60,663 bases of DNA. It comes from a bacterium. Lineage in GTDB: Bacteria > Patescibacteriota > Patescibacteriia > Patescibacteriales > VMTK01. The notes beneath the pieces are model-generated. The model saw only the letters and a program-made list of their open reading frames with translations, was not told the DNA's origin and did no database searches. The stretch is taken from NCBI GenBank assembly GCA_030693295.1, contig JAUYAT010000008.1, positions 1-60,663 of the forward strand, read 5' to 3'. The translations under genes were made by a program, and so were the position numbers. How positions within the stretch are numbered: the stretch's first letter is position 1; every line of letters starts with the position of its first letter. This document shows positions 15,391 through 44,724 of this stretch, piece after piece.

Positions 15391-15464
15391 GGGCGCATAG
15401 CTCAGCTGGTTAGAGCACGGCTCTTATAAAGCCGGGGTCGATGGTTCGAGTCCATCTGCGCCCA
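15391..15464 (+). tRNA. tRNA-Ile, anticodon UAU
   Basis: Hand-folded cloverleaf: GGGCGCA TA GCTC AGCTGGTTA GAGC A CGGCT CTTATAA AGCCG GGGTC GATGG TTCGAGT CCATC TGCGCCC A. The anticodon loop CT-TAT-AA gives TAT. Confidence 0.8.
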
Positions 15465-15477
15465 CTAAAAAATTCAT

Positions 15478-15870: not shown

Positions 15871-15896
15871 CAATCCACCCGAGGCGGATTGTTTTT
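15871..15896 (+). terminator. Intrinsic terminator
   Basis: CAATCCACC-cga-GGCGGATTG followed by TTTTT. Confidence 0.65.
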
Positions 15897-16052: not shown

Positions 16053-16268
16053 TCAAATGTGATGACCACATTCCTGGCATTCCATTTCTTGCCAAGATTT
16101 TTGCGACAAGAAATTACTGCAATTGTCGCAAAAATCAGCTCCCTTTTGCATCATGGCATAATGTGCCATGATGTCGCCCGAATATTGATTGCCATAGCAA
16201 TCAATTGCAATTGGAGTATTCGGGTGCTCCATTGCCAGCTTATTCATTACATCTGTTATTTTTTTCAT
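16053..16268 (-). CDS. Small zinc-ribbon-like protein (two CxxC pairs)
   Basis: 71 aa with CDNC...CQECGHHI. Strong SD (GGAGGAGAGGAGAG) directly upstream. Confidence 0.55.
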   Translation of the reverse strand: MKKITDVMNKLAMEHPNTPIAIDCYGNQYSGDIMAHYAMMQKGADFCDNCSNFLSQKSWQEMECQECGHHI

Positions 16269-16397
16269 CTCTCCTCTCCTCCTCGCCCCGTGGGGCTTTC
16301 TTATTTTTTTTATTTGACTGCCAATTGAATTTCCAAAACAGCGGAAACTTAATAGGTAGCCAAATTGCTATCTTTCAAATTTTAATTTCAAAGAACA

Positions 16398-16481
16398 TCC
16401 GCTTTCGTCCTGCCGCTTGTCCGCCGAAGCTCGGCGTAGGCGGGGACTCATCAGTCCCGATATACATCGGAAGAGCGGAGG
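16398..16481 (-). ncRNA. Hammerhead self-cleaving ribozyme, type III topology
   Basis: Minus-strand RNA: CCUCCGCUC^UUCCGAU-GUAU-AUCGGGA-CUGAUGA-GUCC..(extended helix II, GCCGA-GCU-UCGGC tip)..GGAC-GAA-AGCGGA. All core positions are present: C3 U4 G5 A6 U7 G8 A9, G12 A13 A14, A15.1:U16.1, C17. Helix I is 7 bp with a GUAU loop. Helix III pairs CCGCU with AGCGG (plus a U-A). Predicted cleavage lies between the complements of 16473 and 16472. Confidence 0.8.
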
Positions 16482-16736
16482 TTTTTCATGGAAAAACCTT
16501 AAACCGTTTTAATAAAGAACCAAACCCCGAAGGGTTGCAGGGCGCCTGACAGAGCTAAACATTATTTAGTTATCAAACGTTATTTTCTTTCCCCAACTTA
16601 CCTGCTGTAATTGAGGACGGATTTGCAGTCATTATATCCGCAACTTCGCATATCCTTTTTAGGACGATATGCTATCCTTGCCAATTCTTTTTCTTTCAAC
16701 ACATCATCAATTGGCGCCAGAGAGGATTTAAAATAA

Positions 16737-17165
16737 TCATAATTTTTTGCAAATCATTTTTAATCTTCTAACGGCAGGGGATAACGCCTCTGTCTGCTGA
16801 AGAATGACTGCCTTCCTTGCCTGAATCTCAACTAATGATCCAGACAAGGGAATATTCGCGACCAGGCCTGGGATTGCGGAAACAATCTCCCTCGCCGCGG
16901 ACAGATTATTCATCTGTCTGACTTCGGGAGATTTTTGGAAGAATGGTTTTAACGCATCCTCCCAAATTTTAATCCGTAGTTTTCTATCAATATCATCTCT
17001 CCAATAATCATGGAGGATAAACATCATGGCCTGCCTGGCATTCTCGTAATCTCCGCCGCAGGCAGGCAGCACATGTTTGCGGAAATAATTCTTAATAACC
17101 CGAGGCTTATCAATCCTCCCTATTTGCGACAATATGTCACTTGCTTTAATTCTTATTGGCTCCAT
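16737..17165 (-). CDS. Hypothetical protein, 142 aa
   Basis: Strong SD (AAGGAAGGAGGAAG) upstream. No motif recognised. The start is overlapped by a 23-codon mini-ORF (17146-17217). Confidence 0.5.
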   Translation of the reverse strand: MEPIRIKASDILSQIGRIDKPRVIKNYFRKHVLPACGGDYENARQAMMFILHDYWRDDIDRKLRIKIWEDALKPFFQKSPEVRQMNNLSAAREIVSAIPGLVANIPLSGSLVEIQARKAVILQQTEALSPAVRRLKMICKKL

Positions 17166-17421
17166 TTTTCTTCCTCCTTCCTTTTGTTTTTATTTTACTG
17201 ATAATTTTTTTACTCATTTTTTCCTCCTTATCTTTTTATTTAAACTGTCAAAAACAGTTTTATGTCAAAGAACAATATCTTACTGAAACCACTATATTAA
17301 ATAATGATCTCGGTGAGATGGGCAGAGTTATTTAAACCCTGCCCAAATAAATCTGAACTTTTTTTGGTGTTGTTTCCCCTTTATCCTAAGCACACCTTTA
17401 CTTAGGAGAGGATAAAAAGAT

Positions 17422-18312
17422 CTATTTCAGCACCGACCGGACATAGTCTAGATCGGCTTTGTCGCCGGTAAGTATCACCCGGAAAGGCGCGCCTGACCCG
17501 AGACCGAAAGTCTGAACTAAATTCAGATCCTTGCGATCGGTGGCTACCACGACGATCGGCTCGTTGTTTTGGGCCGAGGTTGTAGAAACTACGACGACAG
17601 GGGCTTTTTTATAGCCCCTTACCAGCAAGCTAGTTAAGTCAACCCCGCCTTGGCCTTCGGGCACATCCGTGTAAACAACGCCCGGGACCAATTCGGTCAG
17701 CCGGTCAAATGCGGTGTTGGTTGCTACTTCCAGCGCTGGATATATAGCCGCGCGCTTAGTGACGAGTAGTGATTCCACACCGGTTATCAGCTCCTCAATG
17801 AAAGCAGATTGCACTGCTTCAACTGCCTGCCTGTCGCCGTTCTGCAGGGCAACAAGCGCGACCTTAAATGCGGAGTTGTACCGCGTAGATAGCGCGATTG
17901 CCGCATATTCGGTTGGCCGGTCGCAAGCATTAGCCGCTGCGGCCCACTCGGCCGGAACGTCAAAGCCGTACTCGGCCATAAGTGTCGGGCAACTCGGCGC
18001 CGTCGGATCGTATATGAATCGATCGCCGAGAATTTCAGCAAGTGCCTCACCTCCGGCATGATGGTCAATCCACATGACGATGTATTCAGCGTTCCGTCGC
18101 GTCCAATCGAGCGTCGCCTGCGGATTCTTATTATCGACTGCTATGTCGACGATGACTGTCTGGCCGGCGAGATCCGGCAATTTGTGGAGCAAAAACGGTT
18201 GAGTCGTAATTAACTTCCCCTCCGCTCCTGCCTTCCTGCAAACCGCGGCGGCGATTGTTCCGTCGCCGTCGCCATGGGCGATGATAGTTGTTTCTGGTGC
18301 GAATTTTTTCAT
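17422..18312 (-). CDS. Divergent DHH-family phosphoesterase-like protein, GC-rich gene
   Basis: 296 aa with IIAHGDGDGTIAAAV (DHH motifs I/II), VIVDIAV and WIDHHAG (DHH). Visibly more GC-rich than its neighbours. SD AAAGGAGAG upstream. Confidence 0.55.
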   Translation of the reverse strand: MKKFAPETTIIAHGDGDGTIAAAVCRKAGAEGKLITTQPFLLHKLPDLAGQTVIVDIAVDNKNPQATLDWTRRNAEYIVMWIDHHAGGEALAEILGDRFIYDPTAPSCPTLMAEYGFDVPAEWAAAANACDRPTEYAAIALSTRYNSAFKVALVALQNGDRQAVEAVQSAFIEELITGVESLLVTKRAAIYPALEVATNTAFDRLTELVPGVVYTDVPEGQGGVDLTSLLVRGYKKAPVVVVSTTSAQNNEPIVVVATDRKDLNLVQTFGLGSGAPFRVILTGDKADLDYVRSVLK

Positions 18313-18549
18313 TTTTCTCTCCTTTTCTTCTTTTTTTTATTTTACCCAAAGGGCAATGAGCTAAATACCTAAAAAAGATATTCACCTTATTGCCCCTTGT
18401 CGTTTCAAAGAACATCCACTCAACAACCGGATAAAATAATGAAGAAGAATTTTAAATTTTTTGCTATTAACGAGCTTTACTTAATTACTTTATCTCATTA
18501 GCAAGATTTCCATCTCCTCCATTATTTTAGCCGCTTGTTTTAATAAATT

Positions 18550-18578
18550 ACTATATCACATACTTAAAAGTTTGTCAA
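18550..18578 (-). promoter_or_regulatory. Sigma70-type promoter for the three-gene minus-strand operon
   Basis: On the minus strand: TTGACA (18578-18573), 17 nt, TATAGT (18555-18550). About 230 nt upstream of the 18312 start. Confidence 0.6.
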
Positions 18579-44585: not shown

Positions 44586-44690
44586 AAAAAAGGTCTCCCG
44601 TCGGCGGTAACCCTTTCGGATCACCCGATGCCCTTTCGGGCAAAGACCACTTGCATAGCGCCGATCAGAAGACCGTCTCTATGCAAGTGG
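44586..44690 (-). promoter_or_regulatory. Structured 5' leader (attenuator or riboswitch-like) ending in a U6 tract
   Basis: Minus-strand RNA: a 12-bp hairpin CCACUUGCAUAG-N20-CUAUGCAAGUGG, then GGUCU-[GCCC GAAA GGGC]-[UCGG GUGAUCC GAAA GGGUUAC CG CCGA]-CGGG-AGACC-UUUUUU. The first hairpin's loop contains a second GGUCU. Confidence 0.4.
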
Positions 44691-44724
44691 ATTTTCAACC
44701 ATGCCTTAAACAAGGGTTAGGTTT

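What the first reader, a model, noticed from the sequence alone, without database searches (positions are those of the whole stretch)
16398..16481. Complete type III hammerhead ribozyme between two genes of one operon
The minus-strand RNA reads CCUCCGCUC^UUCCGAUGUAUAUCGGGACUGAUGAGUCCCCGCCUACGCCGAGCUUCGGCGGACAAGCGGCAGGACGAAAGCGGAUG.

- Every invariant hammerhead core nucleotide is in place: CUGAUGA, GAA, the A15.1-U16.1 pair, and C17 in a CUC cleavage triplet.
- Helix I: UUCCGAU/AUCGGGA, closed by a GUAU loop.
- Helix II: a long three-segment stem (GUCC/GGAC, CCGC/GCGG, GCCGA/UCGGC).
- Helix III: open, pairing CCGCU with AGCGG plus a further U-A pair.

The ribozyme lies 255 nt downstream of the 142-aa gene and about 130 nt upstream of the 71-aa zinc-ribbon gene. 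Self-cleavage would therefore separate the distal cistron from the polycistronic mRNA. I did not expect a hammerhead in what looks like a CPR-type genome, in a non-phage-looking cassette.
Basis: partly seen in the sequence, partly recalled or inferred. Interest (0 to 1): 0.85.

Follow-up and report, generated by a model that had tools for sequence, protein, structure and literature searches.

The report
Hammerhead ribozyme in variable gene cassette
A textbook-complete self-cutting RNA (a type III hammerhead ribozyme) sits in front of a small orphan gene in a variable gene cassette. It belongs to a sizeable group of look-alikes, found mostly in ultra-small CPR bacteria, that the standard RNA database fails to flag.

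Summary
Window 16398-16479 (minus strand) has every invariant hammerhead nucleotide, C17 in a CUC triplet, and three helices in type III topology. The motif is unique in the window, absent from 300 shuffles, and is also the minimum-free-energy fold.

Rfam gives no hammerhead hit, not even at E<=10. That is a model limitation caused by the 41-nt helix II. A covariance model built from 29 other loci, without the window, finds the element full-length at 52.1 bits (E about 2e-16).

The element belongs to a family of at least 63 distinct type III hammerheads:
- 27 of the 40 genome-derived copies are in CPR/Patescibacteria MAGs.
- Helix II is long, and an unpaired A precedes GGAC.
- About 69% have a hairpin abutting helix III. 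The window has one at 16480-16499.

Both flanking ORFs are orphans. All three cassette genes share a repeated leader, and the hammerhead fills the slot where the first gene carries a 118-nt 5' hairpin. Compared with a related contig, the segment holding the ribozyme is a 1.4-kb insertion.

The most likely role is self-cleavage that gives the 71-aa mRNA a structured 5'-OH end and leaves the upstream RNA capped by a hairpin. Cleavage and co-transcription are untested. I rate it a new member of a known kind, of moderate interest.

The parts
16398..16479 (-). Type III hammerhead ribozyme, 82 nt, from the helix III 5' strand to the helix III 3' strand
   Evidence: Sequence. Unique descriptor hit, 0 in 300 shuffles. 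MFE equals the hammerhead fold. Family model R1 scores it 52.1 bits, E 2e-16.
16472..16473 (-). Predicted scissile bond: 3' of C17 (16473), 5' of U1.1 (16472). Expected products are ...CUC>p (2',3'-cyclic phosphate) and 5'-OH-UUCCGAU...
   Evidence: Position follows from hammerhead numbering applied. The chemistry comes from established knowledge of the class and was not tested.
16455..16472 (-). Helix I (7 bp, UUCCGAU/AUCGGGA) closed by loop GUAU (16462-16465)
   Evidence: In the family all 7 pairs covary, and U at position 1.7 is kept in 59 of 67 scored copies.
16448..16454 (-). Core C3-A9: CUGAUGA
   Evidence: Invariant in alignments A1 and A2, although the search pattern fixed it.
16407..16447 (-). 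Extended helix II (41 nt). It has a 4-bp base GUCC/GGAC (G10.1-C11.1), a 3' CA bulge whose A directly precedes GGAC, then CCGC/GCGG, an internal loop, and CGCCGA/UCGGCG with loop GCU
   Evidence: The A before GGAC is present in 60 of 63 family members. The distal part varies across the family.
16398..16406 (-). G12 A13 A14 (16406-16404) plus the helix III 3' strand AGCGGA (16403-16398). A15.1 (16403) pairs with U16.1 (16474)
   Evidence: The 15.1-16.1 pair is U-A in 77 of 78 aligned family members.
16480..16499 (-). Upstream hairpin 'P0' (GGUUUUUC-CAU-GAAAAACC, 8-9 bp), which abuts the helix III 5' strand with no spacer
   Evidence: A comparable hairpin ends within 4 nt of helix III in 69% of 62 unique family members. 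Mean dG is -10.5 versus -4.9 for a downstream control (P = 1e-6) and -8.2 for a far-upstream control (P = 0.008).
16510..16543 (-). Terminator-like hairpin (AACCC-UUCG-GGGUU) with a U-rich tail, lying between the 142-aa ORF and P0/hammerhead
   Evidence: Consensus scan only.
16599..16677 (-). Conserved non-coding stretch of about 80 nt downstream of the 142-aa ORF, predicted to form two hairpins
   Evidence: 87.5% identical to L138 1155-1234, whereas the adjacent coding DNA is 71% identical. An indel breaks the local 34-aa ORF. Fold. No Rfam hit.
16386..16397 (-). Leader box A (UGUUCUUUGAAA), immediately 3' of helix III. It is the first element of the leader shared by all three cassette genes
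   Evidence: Exact copies occur only at 16386-16397, 17263-17274 and 18403-18414.
16269..16385 (-). Remainder of the 71-aa gene leader: two hairpins, box B (AGUCAAAUAAAAAAAA, 16304-16319), a GCCCC/GGGGC hairpin and a purine-rich Shine-Dalgarno run (16269-16284)
16053..16268 (-). 71-aa orphan ORF with CxxC...CxxC zinc-ribbon-like motifs. It is the distal cistron. NCBI annotates a 64-aa version
   Evidence: Weak zinc-ribbon/C1 Pfam hits, all below cut-off. No homologs apart from itself.
16737..17165 (-). 142-aa orphan ORF upstream of the ribozyme
   Evidence: No Pfam or PHROG hit. Only itself among 5.8 billion clusters. Two remote relatives in the full HMMER search: P0035 at 56% over 92 aa, and P0036.
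17422..18312 (-). 296-aa DHH-like ORF, GC 53-57% against about 38% around it. It is the first gene of the cassette
   Evidence: Pfam DHH hit below cut-off. 33 homologs, none with a hammerhead nearby.
18422..18578 (-). Promoter-like site (TTGACA-17-TATAGT, 18578-18550) followed by a 118-nt hairpin (18539-18422). This hairpin fills the same leader slot as the hammerhead and precedes box A at 18403-18414
   Evidence: z = -7.4. 87.8% identical to L003 73-327.
15877..15889 (-). Terminator-like hairpin downstream of the 71-aa ORF, the likely end of the transcription unit
   Evidence: Consensus scan only.

Best explanation
**What it is.** Window 16398-16479 (minus strand) encodes a genuine type III hammerhead self-cleaving ribozyme. 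It belongs to a family of type III hammerheads found mostly in CPR/Patescibacteria genomes. The family is marked by:
- a 6-7 bp helix I with a short loop;
- a 4-bp GUCC/GGAC helix II base;
- a conserved unpaired A before GGAC;
- a long, variable distal helix II;
- usually, a hairpin (P0) stacked against the open helix III.

**How it probably works (inferred).** Transcripts start at the promoter-like site at 18578-18550 and read through the 296-aa and 142-aa genes. They fold into the hammerhead co-transcriptionally and cut between C16473 and U16472.
- The upstream RNA then ends in the P0 hairpin plus 6-7 nt carrying a 2',3'-cyclic phosphate.
- The downstream RNA begins with a 5'-OH buried in helix I of the compact ribozyme. 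Box A, the shared leader, the Shine-Dalgarno sequence and the 71-aa ORF follow.

The ribozyme would thus give the 71-aa mRNA a structured, monophosphate-free 5' end. The 118-nt hairpin in the homologous leader slot would do the same job for the primary transcript of the first gene. Cleavage would also uncouple the stability and translation of the distal cistron from the upstream ones.

**Shown:** the motif, its statistics, family membership, the P0 hairpin, the leader homology and the cassette mosaic.
**Inferred:** cleavage activity, co-transcription, and the stabilising or insulating effect.
For: **Motif**
- Complete core and topology.
- One hit in the window and 0 in 300 shuffles.
- The MFE and centroid keep the fold in 90-nt and 481-nt contexts.

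**Family membership**
- Model R1, built without the window, scores it 52.1 bits, E 2e-16. The next-best hit scores 12.9 bits.
- The family is real. 73 of 114 core-pattern hits have helices I and III against 4.5 expected from shuffled flanks. Under strict criteria it is 65 against 0.26.
- Helices I and III covary: 96% of cells are paired, against 30-51% when partners are slid.

**P0 hairpin**
- It is enriched next to helix III across the family.

**Position and arrangement**
- 59 of 63 family members lie outside any same-strand ORF of at least 100 aa, usually 30-150 nt after a co-directional ORF.
- Several loci carry 2-3 copies on one strand flanking small genes. This matches the arrangement shown to self-cleave in Perreault et al. 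2011 (PMC3088659).

**Leader homology**
- Leader homology places the hammerhead in the slot held by a 5' hairpin in the first gene.

**Literature**
- The 2019 NAR review (PMC6765202) gives processing of polycistronic transcripts into pieces with different stability or translation as the leading, still untested, idea for bacterial hammerheads.
Against: - There are no cleavage or transcript data.
- Rfam RF00008 reports nothing for this copy.
- A terminator-like hairpin with a U-rich tail (16543-16510) lies 30-65 nt upstream. Little transcript may therefore reach the ribozyme.
- The two flanking ORFs are orphans, so they are not proven genes.
- No second, independent copy of this particular ribozyme was found. 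L001 is 100% identical, and the one contig with a 142-aa homolog ends before the equivalent position. Conservation is therefore shown at family level only.
- The helix and covariation counts are partly circular. Sequences were selected for pairing, and alignment A3 was fitted to the model.
- The stabilising role of the 5'-OH end and the 3' hairpin is inferred from model bacteria. The RNase set of this organism is unknown.
Confidence: 0.75

Rival explanations
1. The ribozyme is mainly a feature of a mobile or exchangeable gene cassette, and operon fine-tuning is secondary. It marks or serves the boundary of a small-gene cassette that is swapped between related genomes. It may ensure cassette-autonomous expression wherever the cassette lands, or play some part in cassette turnover.
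For: - Relative to L003, window 17425-16043 is a 1383-nt insertion carrying the 142-aa gene, the ribozyme and the 71-aa gene. L003 instead has unrelated 165/85/96-aa genes inserted at a box A junction.
- Every gene has the same leader module.
- The cargo ORFs are orphans.
- The array lies between two tRNA genes.
- The first gene has foreign GC content.
- Known bacterial hammerheads cluster in prophage or mobile DNA (PMC3088659).
Against: - No integrase, transposase or phage gene lies within about 5 kb.
- There are no flanking direct repeats suggesting att sites.
- Box A does not fit the integron attC core.
- Only one of the three junctions has a ribozyme, and none of nine related contigs has one. 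The ribozyme therefore cannot be required for exchange.
- This reading is compatible with the best explanation and does not exclude it.
Confidence: 0.35
2. The ribozyme acts chiefly as a 3'-end-forming device for the upstream transcript, a 'ribozyme terminator'. P0 plus cleavage gives a hairpin-capped 3' end. The 71-aa gene is transcribed from its own promoter in or after box A, which contains the -35-like TTGAAA.
For: - P0 abuts the cleavage site across the family.
- Box A contains TTGAAA or TTGACA in all three leaders.
- The hammerhead follows a terminator-like hairpin.
Against: - No acceptable -10 element lies at the right spacing after any box A (reading; the scan lists none).
- In the 296-aa leader, box A lies about 130 nt downstream of a near-consensus promoter. 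It is therefore inside the transcript and not a promoter.
- In 10 family members helix III ends 0-12 nt before the start codon of an ORF of at least 100 aa. There the ribozyme must be part of the downstream mRNA.
Confidence: 0.15
3. The long helix II is a sensor, making this an allosteric or protein-dependent ribozyme. Cleavage would respond to a ligand or protein and so control the 71-aa gene.
For: - Helix II is 41 nt with internal loops.
- Long helix II elements define the whole family.
Against: - The distal helix II varies in length (26-53 nt), sequence and shape among relatives. Only the 4-bp base and the adjacent A are conserved. That is not how a conserved aptamer behaves.
- The active fold is already the MFE.
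Confidence: 0.05
4. It is a chance look-alike or a decayed, inactive relic.
For: - No Rfam hit.
- No independent ortholog of this exact copy.
Against: - 0 of 300 shuffles contain such a motif.
- E about 2e-16 with an independent model.
- Every invariant core nucleotide is intact, and all three helices are fully paired.
Confidence: 0.04

Closest known systems
Type III hammerhead ribozymes (Rfam RF00008, clan CL00010)
   Same: - Identical catalytic core: C3-A9, G12-A14, the A15.1-U16.1 pair, the G10.1-C11.1 pair and C17.
- Helices I and II are closed and helix III is open.
- Helix I is 7 bp with a loop, and the helix II base is 4 bp followed by an unpaired A. To my knowledge this is the format of tertiary-stabilised natural hammerheads (own knowledge, not tested).
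   Different: - Helix II is 41 nt with bulges, not about 4 bp plus a short loop. RF00008 therefore gives no hit here and only 34.9 of 48.5 bits for a relative.
- An extra hairpin abuts helix III.
Bacterial and prophage hammerheads flanking single genes in polycistronic transcripts (Perreault et al. 2011, PMC3088659)
   Same: - The position is intergenic, between co-directional small genes in accessory DNA.
- Relatives occur as 2-3 copies on one strand flanking small ORFs.
- The proposed role is the same: processing long transcripts into gene-length mRNAs.
   Different: - Those examples are mostly type II, use pseudoknot contacts, and sit in recognisable prophages.
- This one is a single type III copy with no phage genes nearby.
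- Its subfamily is nearly absent from viral contigs.
Synthetic ribozyme insulators such as RiboJ (an sTRSV hammerhead plus a hairpin placed in a 5' UTR; own knowledge)
   Same: A type III hammerhead upstream of a ribosome-binding site cuts off variable upstream RNA. This leaves a defined, structured 5'-OH end on the mRNA.
   Different: - RiboJ is engineered, and its extra hairpin lies 3' of the ribozyme.
- Here the extra hairpin lies 5' of the cleavage site and stays with the upstream fragment.
- No insulating effect has been tested here.
5'-terminal stabilising stem-loops of bacterial mRNAs (own knowledge)
   Same: The homologous leader of the first gene starts with a 118-nt hairpin right after the promoter. 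The ribozyme occupies the same leader slot and would leave a 5'-terminal helix after cleavage.
   Different: With the ribozyme, the 5' end arises by self-cleavage and carries a 5'-OH. It does not arise by transcription initiation with a 5'-triphosphate.

Membership tests
Hammerhead ribozyme, type III | Core strand C3 U4 G5 A6 N7 G8 A9 | tested here: met
   CUGAUGA at 16454-16448.
Hammerhead ribozyme, type III | Core strand G12 A13 A14 | tested here: met
   GAA at 16406-16404.
Hammerhead ribozyme, type III | A15.1-U16.1 and G10.1-C11.1 closing pairs | tested here: met
   A16403-U16474 and G16447-C16407. The 15.1-16.1 pair is U-A in 77 of 78 relatives.
Hammerhead ribozyme, type III | Cleavage-site nucleotide 17 is not G, within an NUH triplet | tested here: met
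   C16473 in CUC. CUC occurs in 57 of 63 family members.
Hammerhead ribozyme, type III | Three helices around the core, with I and II closed by loops and III open | tested here: met
   Helices of 7 bp, 4 bp plus extension, and 6 bp. The descriptor hit is unique, and the MFE gives the same fold.
Hammerhead ribozyme, type III | Helices supported by covariation in related sequences | tested here: met
   On A3 (78 sequences), 7 of 7 helix I pairs and 4 of 5 helix III pairs change on both sides. 96% of cells are paired, against 30-51% when partners are slid. Caveats: sequences were chosen for pairing and the alignment was fitted to the model. The non-circular support is the shuffled-flank null of 73 observed against 4.5 expected.
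Hammerhead ribozyme, type III | Scores at or above the Rfam RF00008 gathering threshold (48.5 bits) | tested here: not met
   No hit at gathering score or at E<=10. Relative L021 scores 34.9 bits, and none of 18 related loci passed. I attribute this to the long helix II insertion. It is a limit of the curated model and is not a defining property of the ribozyme class.
Hammerhead ribozyme, type III | Mg2+-dependent site-specific self-cleavage giving 2',3'-cyclic phosphate and 5'-OH ends | not testable with these tools
   Needs an in vitro transcription and cleavage assay with core mutants.
Hammerhead ribozyme, type III | Tertiary contact between the helix I loop and the helix II loop or bulge, needed for activity at physiological Mg2+ | not testable with these tools
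   The format fits. Helix I is 7 bp with U at 1.7 (59 of 67 scored copies). The helix II base is 4 bp followed by an unpaired A (60 of 63 members). The contact itself cannot be shown here.
Long-helix-II, CPR-enriched type III subfamily (defined here by model R1) | Full-length match to a covariance model built from other members | tested here: met
   52.1 bits, E 2e-16, model positions 1-68 of 68. The window was not in the seed.
Long-helix-II, CPR-enriched type III subfamily (defined here by model R1) | Hairpin ending within 4 nt of the helix III 5' strand | tested here: met
   P0 at 16499-16480 with no spacer. Present in 69% of 62 unique members.
Long-helix-II, CPR-enriched type III subfamily (defined here by model R1) | Host is a CPR/Patescibacteria genome | tested here: inconclusive
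   NCBI names the source only 'MAG: bacterium'. Homologs of the 296-aa protein are named Falkowbacteria and Minisyncoccia. I made no phylogenetic placement.
Integron gene-cassette array (considered for the context) | Adjacent IntI integrase, and attC sites with a GTTRRRY core between cassettes | tested here: not met
   No integrase among ORFs from 11.3 to 21.5 kb. Box A (TGTTCTTTGAMA) does not fit GTTRRRY on either strand (reading). The rest of the window was not screened for intI.

The most novel reading that the evidence does not exclude
P0 plus a long-helix-II type III hammerhead could be an undescribed, self-contained 'punctuation' module. It would be characteristic of CPR/Patescibacteria and invisible to Rfam thresholds. 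These reduced genomes would use it to define mRNA ends without an RNase: a hairpin-capped 3' end upstream and a ribozyme-capped 5'-OH end downstream. In a subset it would also free a Shine-Dalgarno sequence held in helix III.
Probability: 0.3. Interest if true: 0.6.

Novelty: new member of a known kind. Interest (0 to 1): 0.42.

Why it matters
The biological role of hammerheads encoded in bacterial genomes is still an open question (PMC6765202). This copy offers an unusually clean natural comparison. Three genes share one leader design. In the same leader slot, one gene has a plain 5' hairpin and another has a self-cleaving ribozyme.

At family level the work shows three things:
- At least 63 distinct type III hammerheads, mostly in CPR genomes, fall below the Rfam gathering score. 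Routine annotation therefore under-counts ribozymes in these lineages.
- A hairpin stacked on helix III recurs as an accessory feature.
- In a subset, helix III sits directly on the ribosome-binding region of sizeable genes (adenylosuccinate-synthetase-like, glycosyltransferase family 2).

Some Saccharibacteria can be cultured with their hosts (own knowledge). Family members in that lineage could therefore make the function testable in vivo.

Tried and rejected
- **Rfam.** Gathering and E<=10 scans gave no hammerhead call for the window. None of 18 related loci passed the gathering score.
- **Exact copy.** A 56-nt exact search in representative genomes found 0 hits.
- **Flanking ORFs as a route to orthologous loci.** The 142-aa and 71-aa proteins are orphans. 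The full HMMER search gave only two remote relatives. The one contig obtained (L138) ends before the ribozyme position.
- **Linkage to the DHH-like 296-aa gene.** Rejected. Nine homolog contigs carry no hammerhead by descriptor, Rfam or R1. The apparent DHH-like protein upstream of relative L076 is only marginally similar (E = 0.009) and has no Pfam hit.
- **L001 as an independent copy.** Rejected. It is 100% identical to the window.
- **Phage or plasmid origin.**
  - No blastn match in the phage or plasmid collections.
  - The single viral hit of the long-helix-II pattern is not a hammerhead.
  - Only 2 of 10 viral hits with a short helix II share this geometry.
- **The 80-nt conserved element.** No match in viral contigs.
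- **First MAFFT alignment of all 62 relatives (A1).** It misregistered helix I and helix III, so I did not use it for modelling.
- **Box A as a promoter.** Rejected for lack of a -10 element, and because it lies inside the transcript of the first gene.
- **Integron-like array.** No integrase and no attC core.
- **Literature.** Searches joining hammerhead with CPR lineage names found nothing relevant.
- **LOOT RNA as a lineage marker.** The paper's main text gave no lineage information.
Full report
**1. The observation**

On the minus strand, window 16479-16398 reads UCCGCUC UUCCGAU GUAU AUCGGGA CUGAUGA GUCC...GGAC GAA AGCGGA. In hammerhead numbering:

| Element | Sequence | Window coordinates |
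|---|---|---|
| Helix III 5' strand | UCCGCU | 16479-16474 |
| C17 | C | 16473 |
| Helix I 5' strand | UUCCGAU | 16472-16466 |
| Helix I loop | GUAU | 16465-16462 |
| Helix I 3' strand | AUCGGGA | 16461-16455 |
| Core C3-A9 | CUGAUGA | 16454-16448 |
| Helix II | GUCC...GGAC | 16447-16407 |
| G12-A14 | GAA | 16406-16404 |
| Helix III 3' strand | AGCGGA | 16403-16398 |

A15.1-U16.1 and G10.1-C11.1 are both in place. The predicted cut lies between 16473 and 16472.

- A type III descriptor finds only this site on both strands of the window. The descriptor requires CUGANGA, a closed helix II, GAA, a closed helix I, a non-G at position 17 and an open helix III. It found none in 300 dinucleotide-preserving shuffles.
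- The unconstrained MFE of the 90-nt segment is exactly the three-way junction (-36 kcal/mol, z = -2.7).
- The fold persists in the MFE and centroid of the whole 481-nt intergenic region.

**2. Why Rfam is silent**

There is no hammerhead hit at gathering score or at E<=10 on 16300-16600. I do not read this as evidence against a hammerhead, for three reasons:
- RF00008 is a 54-position model with a short helix II, whereas this helix II is 41 nt.
- On a clear relative with a 33-nt helix II (L021), RF00008 reaches only 34.9 bits against a gathering score of 48.5.
- None of 18 related loci was called at gathering score.

**3. Relatives**

Flanking proteins did not lead to orthologous loci.
- The 142-aa and 71-aa ORFs are orphans.
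- A full HMMER search found only two remote relatives of the 142-aa ORF.
- The 296-aa DHH-like protein has 33 homologs. Nine of their contigs carry no hammerhead by descriptor, Rfam or my own model.
- L001 is a 100% identical copy from another assembly, so it adds nothing.

A direct DNA search was productive. I used the core plus the proximal helix II, requiring a long helix II: CTGATGAGTCC N18-45 GGACGAAAG.

| Collection | Loci found |
|---|---|
| Representative genomes | 52 |
| Metagenome contigs | 65 |
| Viral contigs | 1 (not a hammerhead) |

- Of 118 pattern hits, 75 (63 distinct sequences, counting the window) have a complete helix I hairpin, a non-G at position 17 and helix III in type III topology.
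- With shuffled upstream flanks the expectation is 4.5 against 73 observed. Under strict criteria it is 0.26 against 65. These are real ribozymes and not chance pattern matches.
- Of the 40 complete copies in representative genomes, 27 are in MAGs named as CPR/Patescibacteria. The names include Saccharibacteria, Magasanikbacteria, Daviesbacteria, Kaiserbacteria, Vogelbacteria, Gracilibacteria and Parcubacteria.
- To my own knowledge CPR makes up only a few percent of the bases in such a collection. I did not compute the denominator.

**4. Independent membership test**

I built covariance model R1 from 29 relatives with uniform geometry. The window was left out.
- With filters off, R1 finds window 16398-16479 full-length at 52.1 bits, E about 2e-16. 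The next-best hit in the window scores 12.9 bits.
- Across the loci R1 recovers all descriptor-positive copies.
- R1 also finds extra copies with a short helix II on the same strand of the same contigs: three in L103, three in L027, and two each in L021, L054 and L115. In L103 they flank small ORFs.
- This is the arrangement that Perreault et al. 2011 showed to self-cleave in bacterial polycistronic RNAs (PMC3088659).
- On the model-fitted alignment, all 7 helix I pairs and 4 of 5 helix III pairs change on both sides. 96% of cells are paired, against 30-51% when partners are slid. The 15.1-16.1 pair is U-A in 77 of 78.
- These counts are descriptive only. The sequences were chosen for pairing and the alignment was fitted to the model.

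**5. Features of the subfamily that the window shares**

- **Helix I.** 7 bp in 44 of 63 members, with a 3-4 nt loop. The closest relatives have loop GUGU, and the window has GUAU.
- **Helix II.** A 4-bp GUCC/GGAC base was fixed by my pattern. An unpaired nucleotide directly 5' of GGAC is A in 60 of 63 members. The distal stem varies in length (26-53 nt overall), sequence and shape.
- **Reading of the A.** The conserved A at that position and the conserved U at 1.7 fit the loop-loop contact format of natural type III hammerheads. This rests on my own knowledge. The contact cannot be tested here.
- **Hairpin P0.** It ends within 4 nt of the helix III 5' strand in 69% of 62 unique members. It is more stable than control segments: mean -10.5 against -4.9 kcal/mol downstream (P = 1e-6) and -8.2 far upstream (P = 0.008).
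  - In the window P0 is GGUUUUUC-CAU-GAAAAACC (16498-16480), with no spacer before helix III. It resembles the P0 of L026 and L078.
  - I found no description of this feature in the papers I could search.
- **Position.** 59 of 63 lie outside any same-strand ORF of at least 100 aa. Most sit 30-150 nt after a co-directional ORF.
- **Start-codon proximity.** In 10 members helix III (AGGGA-type 3' strand) ends 0-12 nt before the start codon of an ORF of at least 100 aa.
  - These ORFs include adenylosuccinate-synthetase-like and family 2 glycosyltransferase genes. There the ribosome-binding region is part of helix III.
  - The window's copy is not of this type. Its helix III ends 129 nt before the ATG.

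**6. Context in the window**

The three minus-strand genes (296 aa, 142 aa and 71 aa) lie between tRNA-Val(GAC) and tRNA-Ile(UAU).
- A near-consensus promoter-like site at 18578-18550 and a terminator-like site at 15889-15877 bracket them.
- A further terminator-like hairpin with a U-rich tail lies at 16543-16510.

A repeat scan and an alignment show that all three genes share one leader design: a strongly structured slot, box A (UGUUCUUUGAMA), a hairpin, box B (AGUMAAAUAAAAA...GAA), the Shine-Dalgarno sequence, then ATG.
- Exact box A copies occur only at these three places in the window. Box B behaves the same way.
- The slot differs between genes:

| Gene | Content of the leader slot |
|---|---|
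| 296 aa | 118-nt hairpin (18539-18422, z = -7.4) starting just after the promoter |
| 142 aa | Two hairpins |
| 71 aa | P0 plus the hammerhead |

- The hammerhead's helix III 3' strand, AGCGGA, aligns with AGUGGA of the first leader.

L003 is a contig from another sample whose DHH-like protein is 82% identical. Comparison with it shows a mosaic:

| Window | L003 | Identity | Content |
|---|---|---|---|
| 18665-18422 | 73-327 | 87.8% | Promoter plus the 118-nt hairpin |
| 18421-18334 | 1389-1477 | 95.5% | Box A leader, there in front of an unrelated 96-aa gene |
| 18361-17426 | 1967-2903 | 78.9% | The DHH-like gene with its proximal leader |
| 16042-16000 | 2911-2947 | 83.7% | Terminal region |

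- Window 17425-16043 (1383 nt) is therefore an insertion relative to L003. It holds the 142-aa cassette, an 80-nt conserved element, the terminator-like hairpin, P0, the hammerhead, the leader and the 71-aa gene.
- L003 carries other small genes at a box A junction instead.
- L138, with the only real homolog of the 142-aa ORF, also has a box A variant upstream.
- No integrase or phage gene lies nearby, and box A does not fit an integron attC core.

The ribozyme thus sits in a variable array of small-gene cassettes with conserved leaders.

**7. Most likely mechanism**

*Shown:*
- a complete hammerhead in the sense orientation of three co-directional genes;
- a hairpin abutting the cleavage-site strand;
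- the ribozyme occupying the leader slot where the first gene has a 5'-terminal hairpin.

*Inferred:*
- Transcripts that reach the site cleave themselves between C16473 and U16472.
- The upstream RNA ends in P0 plus 6-7 nt carrying a 2',3'-cyclic phosphate.
- The downstream RNA starts with a 5'-OH inside helix I, followed by box A, the leader and the 71-aa ORF.
- By analogy with model bacteria and with engineered ribozyme insulators (own knowledge), both ends should resist end-dependent decay. The distal cistron would also become independent of upstream sequence.
- P0 may additionally stabilise the short helix III by stacking on it.

This is the untested hypothesis that the field already holds for bacterial hammerheads (PMC6765202). 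The leader homology adds an internal argument for the 5'-cap part.

*Main uncertainties:*
- whether enough transcription passes the terminator-like hairpin;
- whether the orphan ORFs are expressed;
- activity itself.

**8. Rivals**

- **The ribozyme is a property of an exchangeable cassette.** This is compatible with the account above. The mosaic supports it. The absence of recombinase genes counts against it, as does the absence of ribozymes at other junctions.
- **Pure 3'-end formation, with a separate promoter in box A.** Disfavoured. Box A lies inside the first gene's transcript and no -10 element follows it.
- **Helix II as a sensor.** Disfavoured by its variability across the family.
- **Chance or relic.** Rejected on the statistics and the intact core.

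**9. Comparison with what is known, and novelty**

It works like a type III hammerhead and meets every sequence and topology criterion for one. The one criterion not met is the Rfam gathering score, which is a property of the curated model. Catalysis cannot be tested here.

The intergenic, intercistronic setting is already described for bacteria (PMC3088659). The following may be new:
- the size and CPR bias of the long-helix-II type III group;
- its invisibility to Rfam thresholds;
- the recurrent P0 hairpin;
- the leader-slot equivalence in this cassette array.

I found no paper linking hammerheads with CPR lineages in the searchable library. That library is incomplete. The large 2011 dataset may already contain such sequences.

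**10. Verdict**

A genuine hammerhead: a new member of a known kind, belonging to an under-annotated subfamily. Interest is moderate.

Noticed in passing
window 16599-16677 (minus strand); L138 1155-1234: A non-coding stretch of about 80 nt downstream of the 142-aa ORF is 87.5% identical to the region downstream of that ORF's only real homolog, whereas the coding DNA is 71% identical. An indel breaks the local 34-aa ORF. Two hairpins are predicted. There is no Rfam, phage, plasmid or viral-contig match.
   Followed up: partly
window 16269-16397, 17166-17274, 18313-18414 (minus strand); L003 1389-1512 and 1905-2016; L138 about 380: A repeated leader module precedes each small gene of the cassette, and unrelated genes in two other contigs. 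It consists of box A (UGUUCUUUGAMA), a hairpin, box B (AGUMAAAUAAAAA) and the Shine-Dalgarno sequence. The junctions of the window/L003 mosaic fall at box A. This looks like a variable small-gene cassette array with conserved leaders and no recombinase in sight.
   Followed up: partly
window 18422-18539 (minus strand): A very stable 118-nt hairpin (27-nt arms 85% complementary; fold z = -7.4) starts a few bases after a near-consensus promoter-like site at 18578-18550. It is 87.8% conserved in L003.
   Followed up: partly
window 16340-16345 versus 16474-16479 (minus strand): The hexamer UCCGCU of the helix III 5' strand recurs 52 nt downstream of the ribozyme, inside a UUUCC/GGAAA hairpin. After cleavage it could in principle re-pair with AGCGGA. 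A 6-mer recurring within 130 nt has roughly a 3% chance, so this may be coincidence.
   Followed up: no
L017 5962-6042, L043 4329-4410, L055 6598-6668, L124 651-738: In these four loci the family hammerhead lies 0-6 nt upstream of the start codon of an adenylosuccinate-synthetase-like gene. Pfam PF00709 scores E 5e-42 for L017. The ribosome-binding region lies inside helix III. The L017 copy (Daviesbacteria MAG) and the L043 copy (MAG labelled Gammaproteobacteria) encode clearly similar proteins, judged by eye without computing identity.
   Followed up: partly
L011, L070, L077, L080, L085, L090, L096, L102, L105, L110, L112, L113, L117, L118: A conserved GC-rich soil motif, seen in a Gaiellaceae MAG and many soil metagenome contigs, contains CUGAUGAGUCC...GGACGAAAG enclosed by a long outer helix (GCCGAGC.CGGG / CCCGGCUCGGC). 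It does not fit the type III descriptor. R1 scores L011 at only 23.6 bits. It may be a different topology or a hammerhead-like variant.
   Followed up: no
L103 482-533, 1420-1501, 1783-1835 (minus strand); also L027, L021, L054, L115: Two or three type III hammerheads lie on one strand of a contig, mixing long and short helix II forms. In L103 they flank small ORFs. One L103 copy has CUGACGA (C at position 7).
   Followed up: partly
window 44606-44723 (minus strand): LOOT RNA (RF03000) scores 72.6 bits, above its gathering score.
   Followed up: no
window 15391-15465 (plus strand): A tRNA-Ile with anticodon UAU. To my knowledge most bacteria decode AUA with a lysidine-modified CAU tRNA, so a UAU tRNA-Ile is uncommon.
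   Followed up: no
window 17422-18312: The 296-aa DHH-like gene has 53-57% GC against about 38% in its surroundings. Its homologs sit in varied contexts, for example between the type IV pilus genes pilB-like and pilC-like in L005-L008. This suggests a horizontally moving gene.
   Followed up: partly
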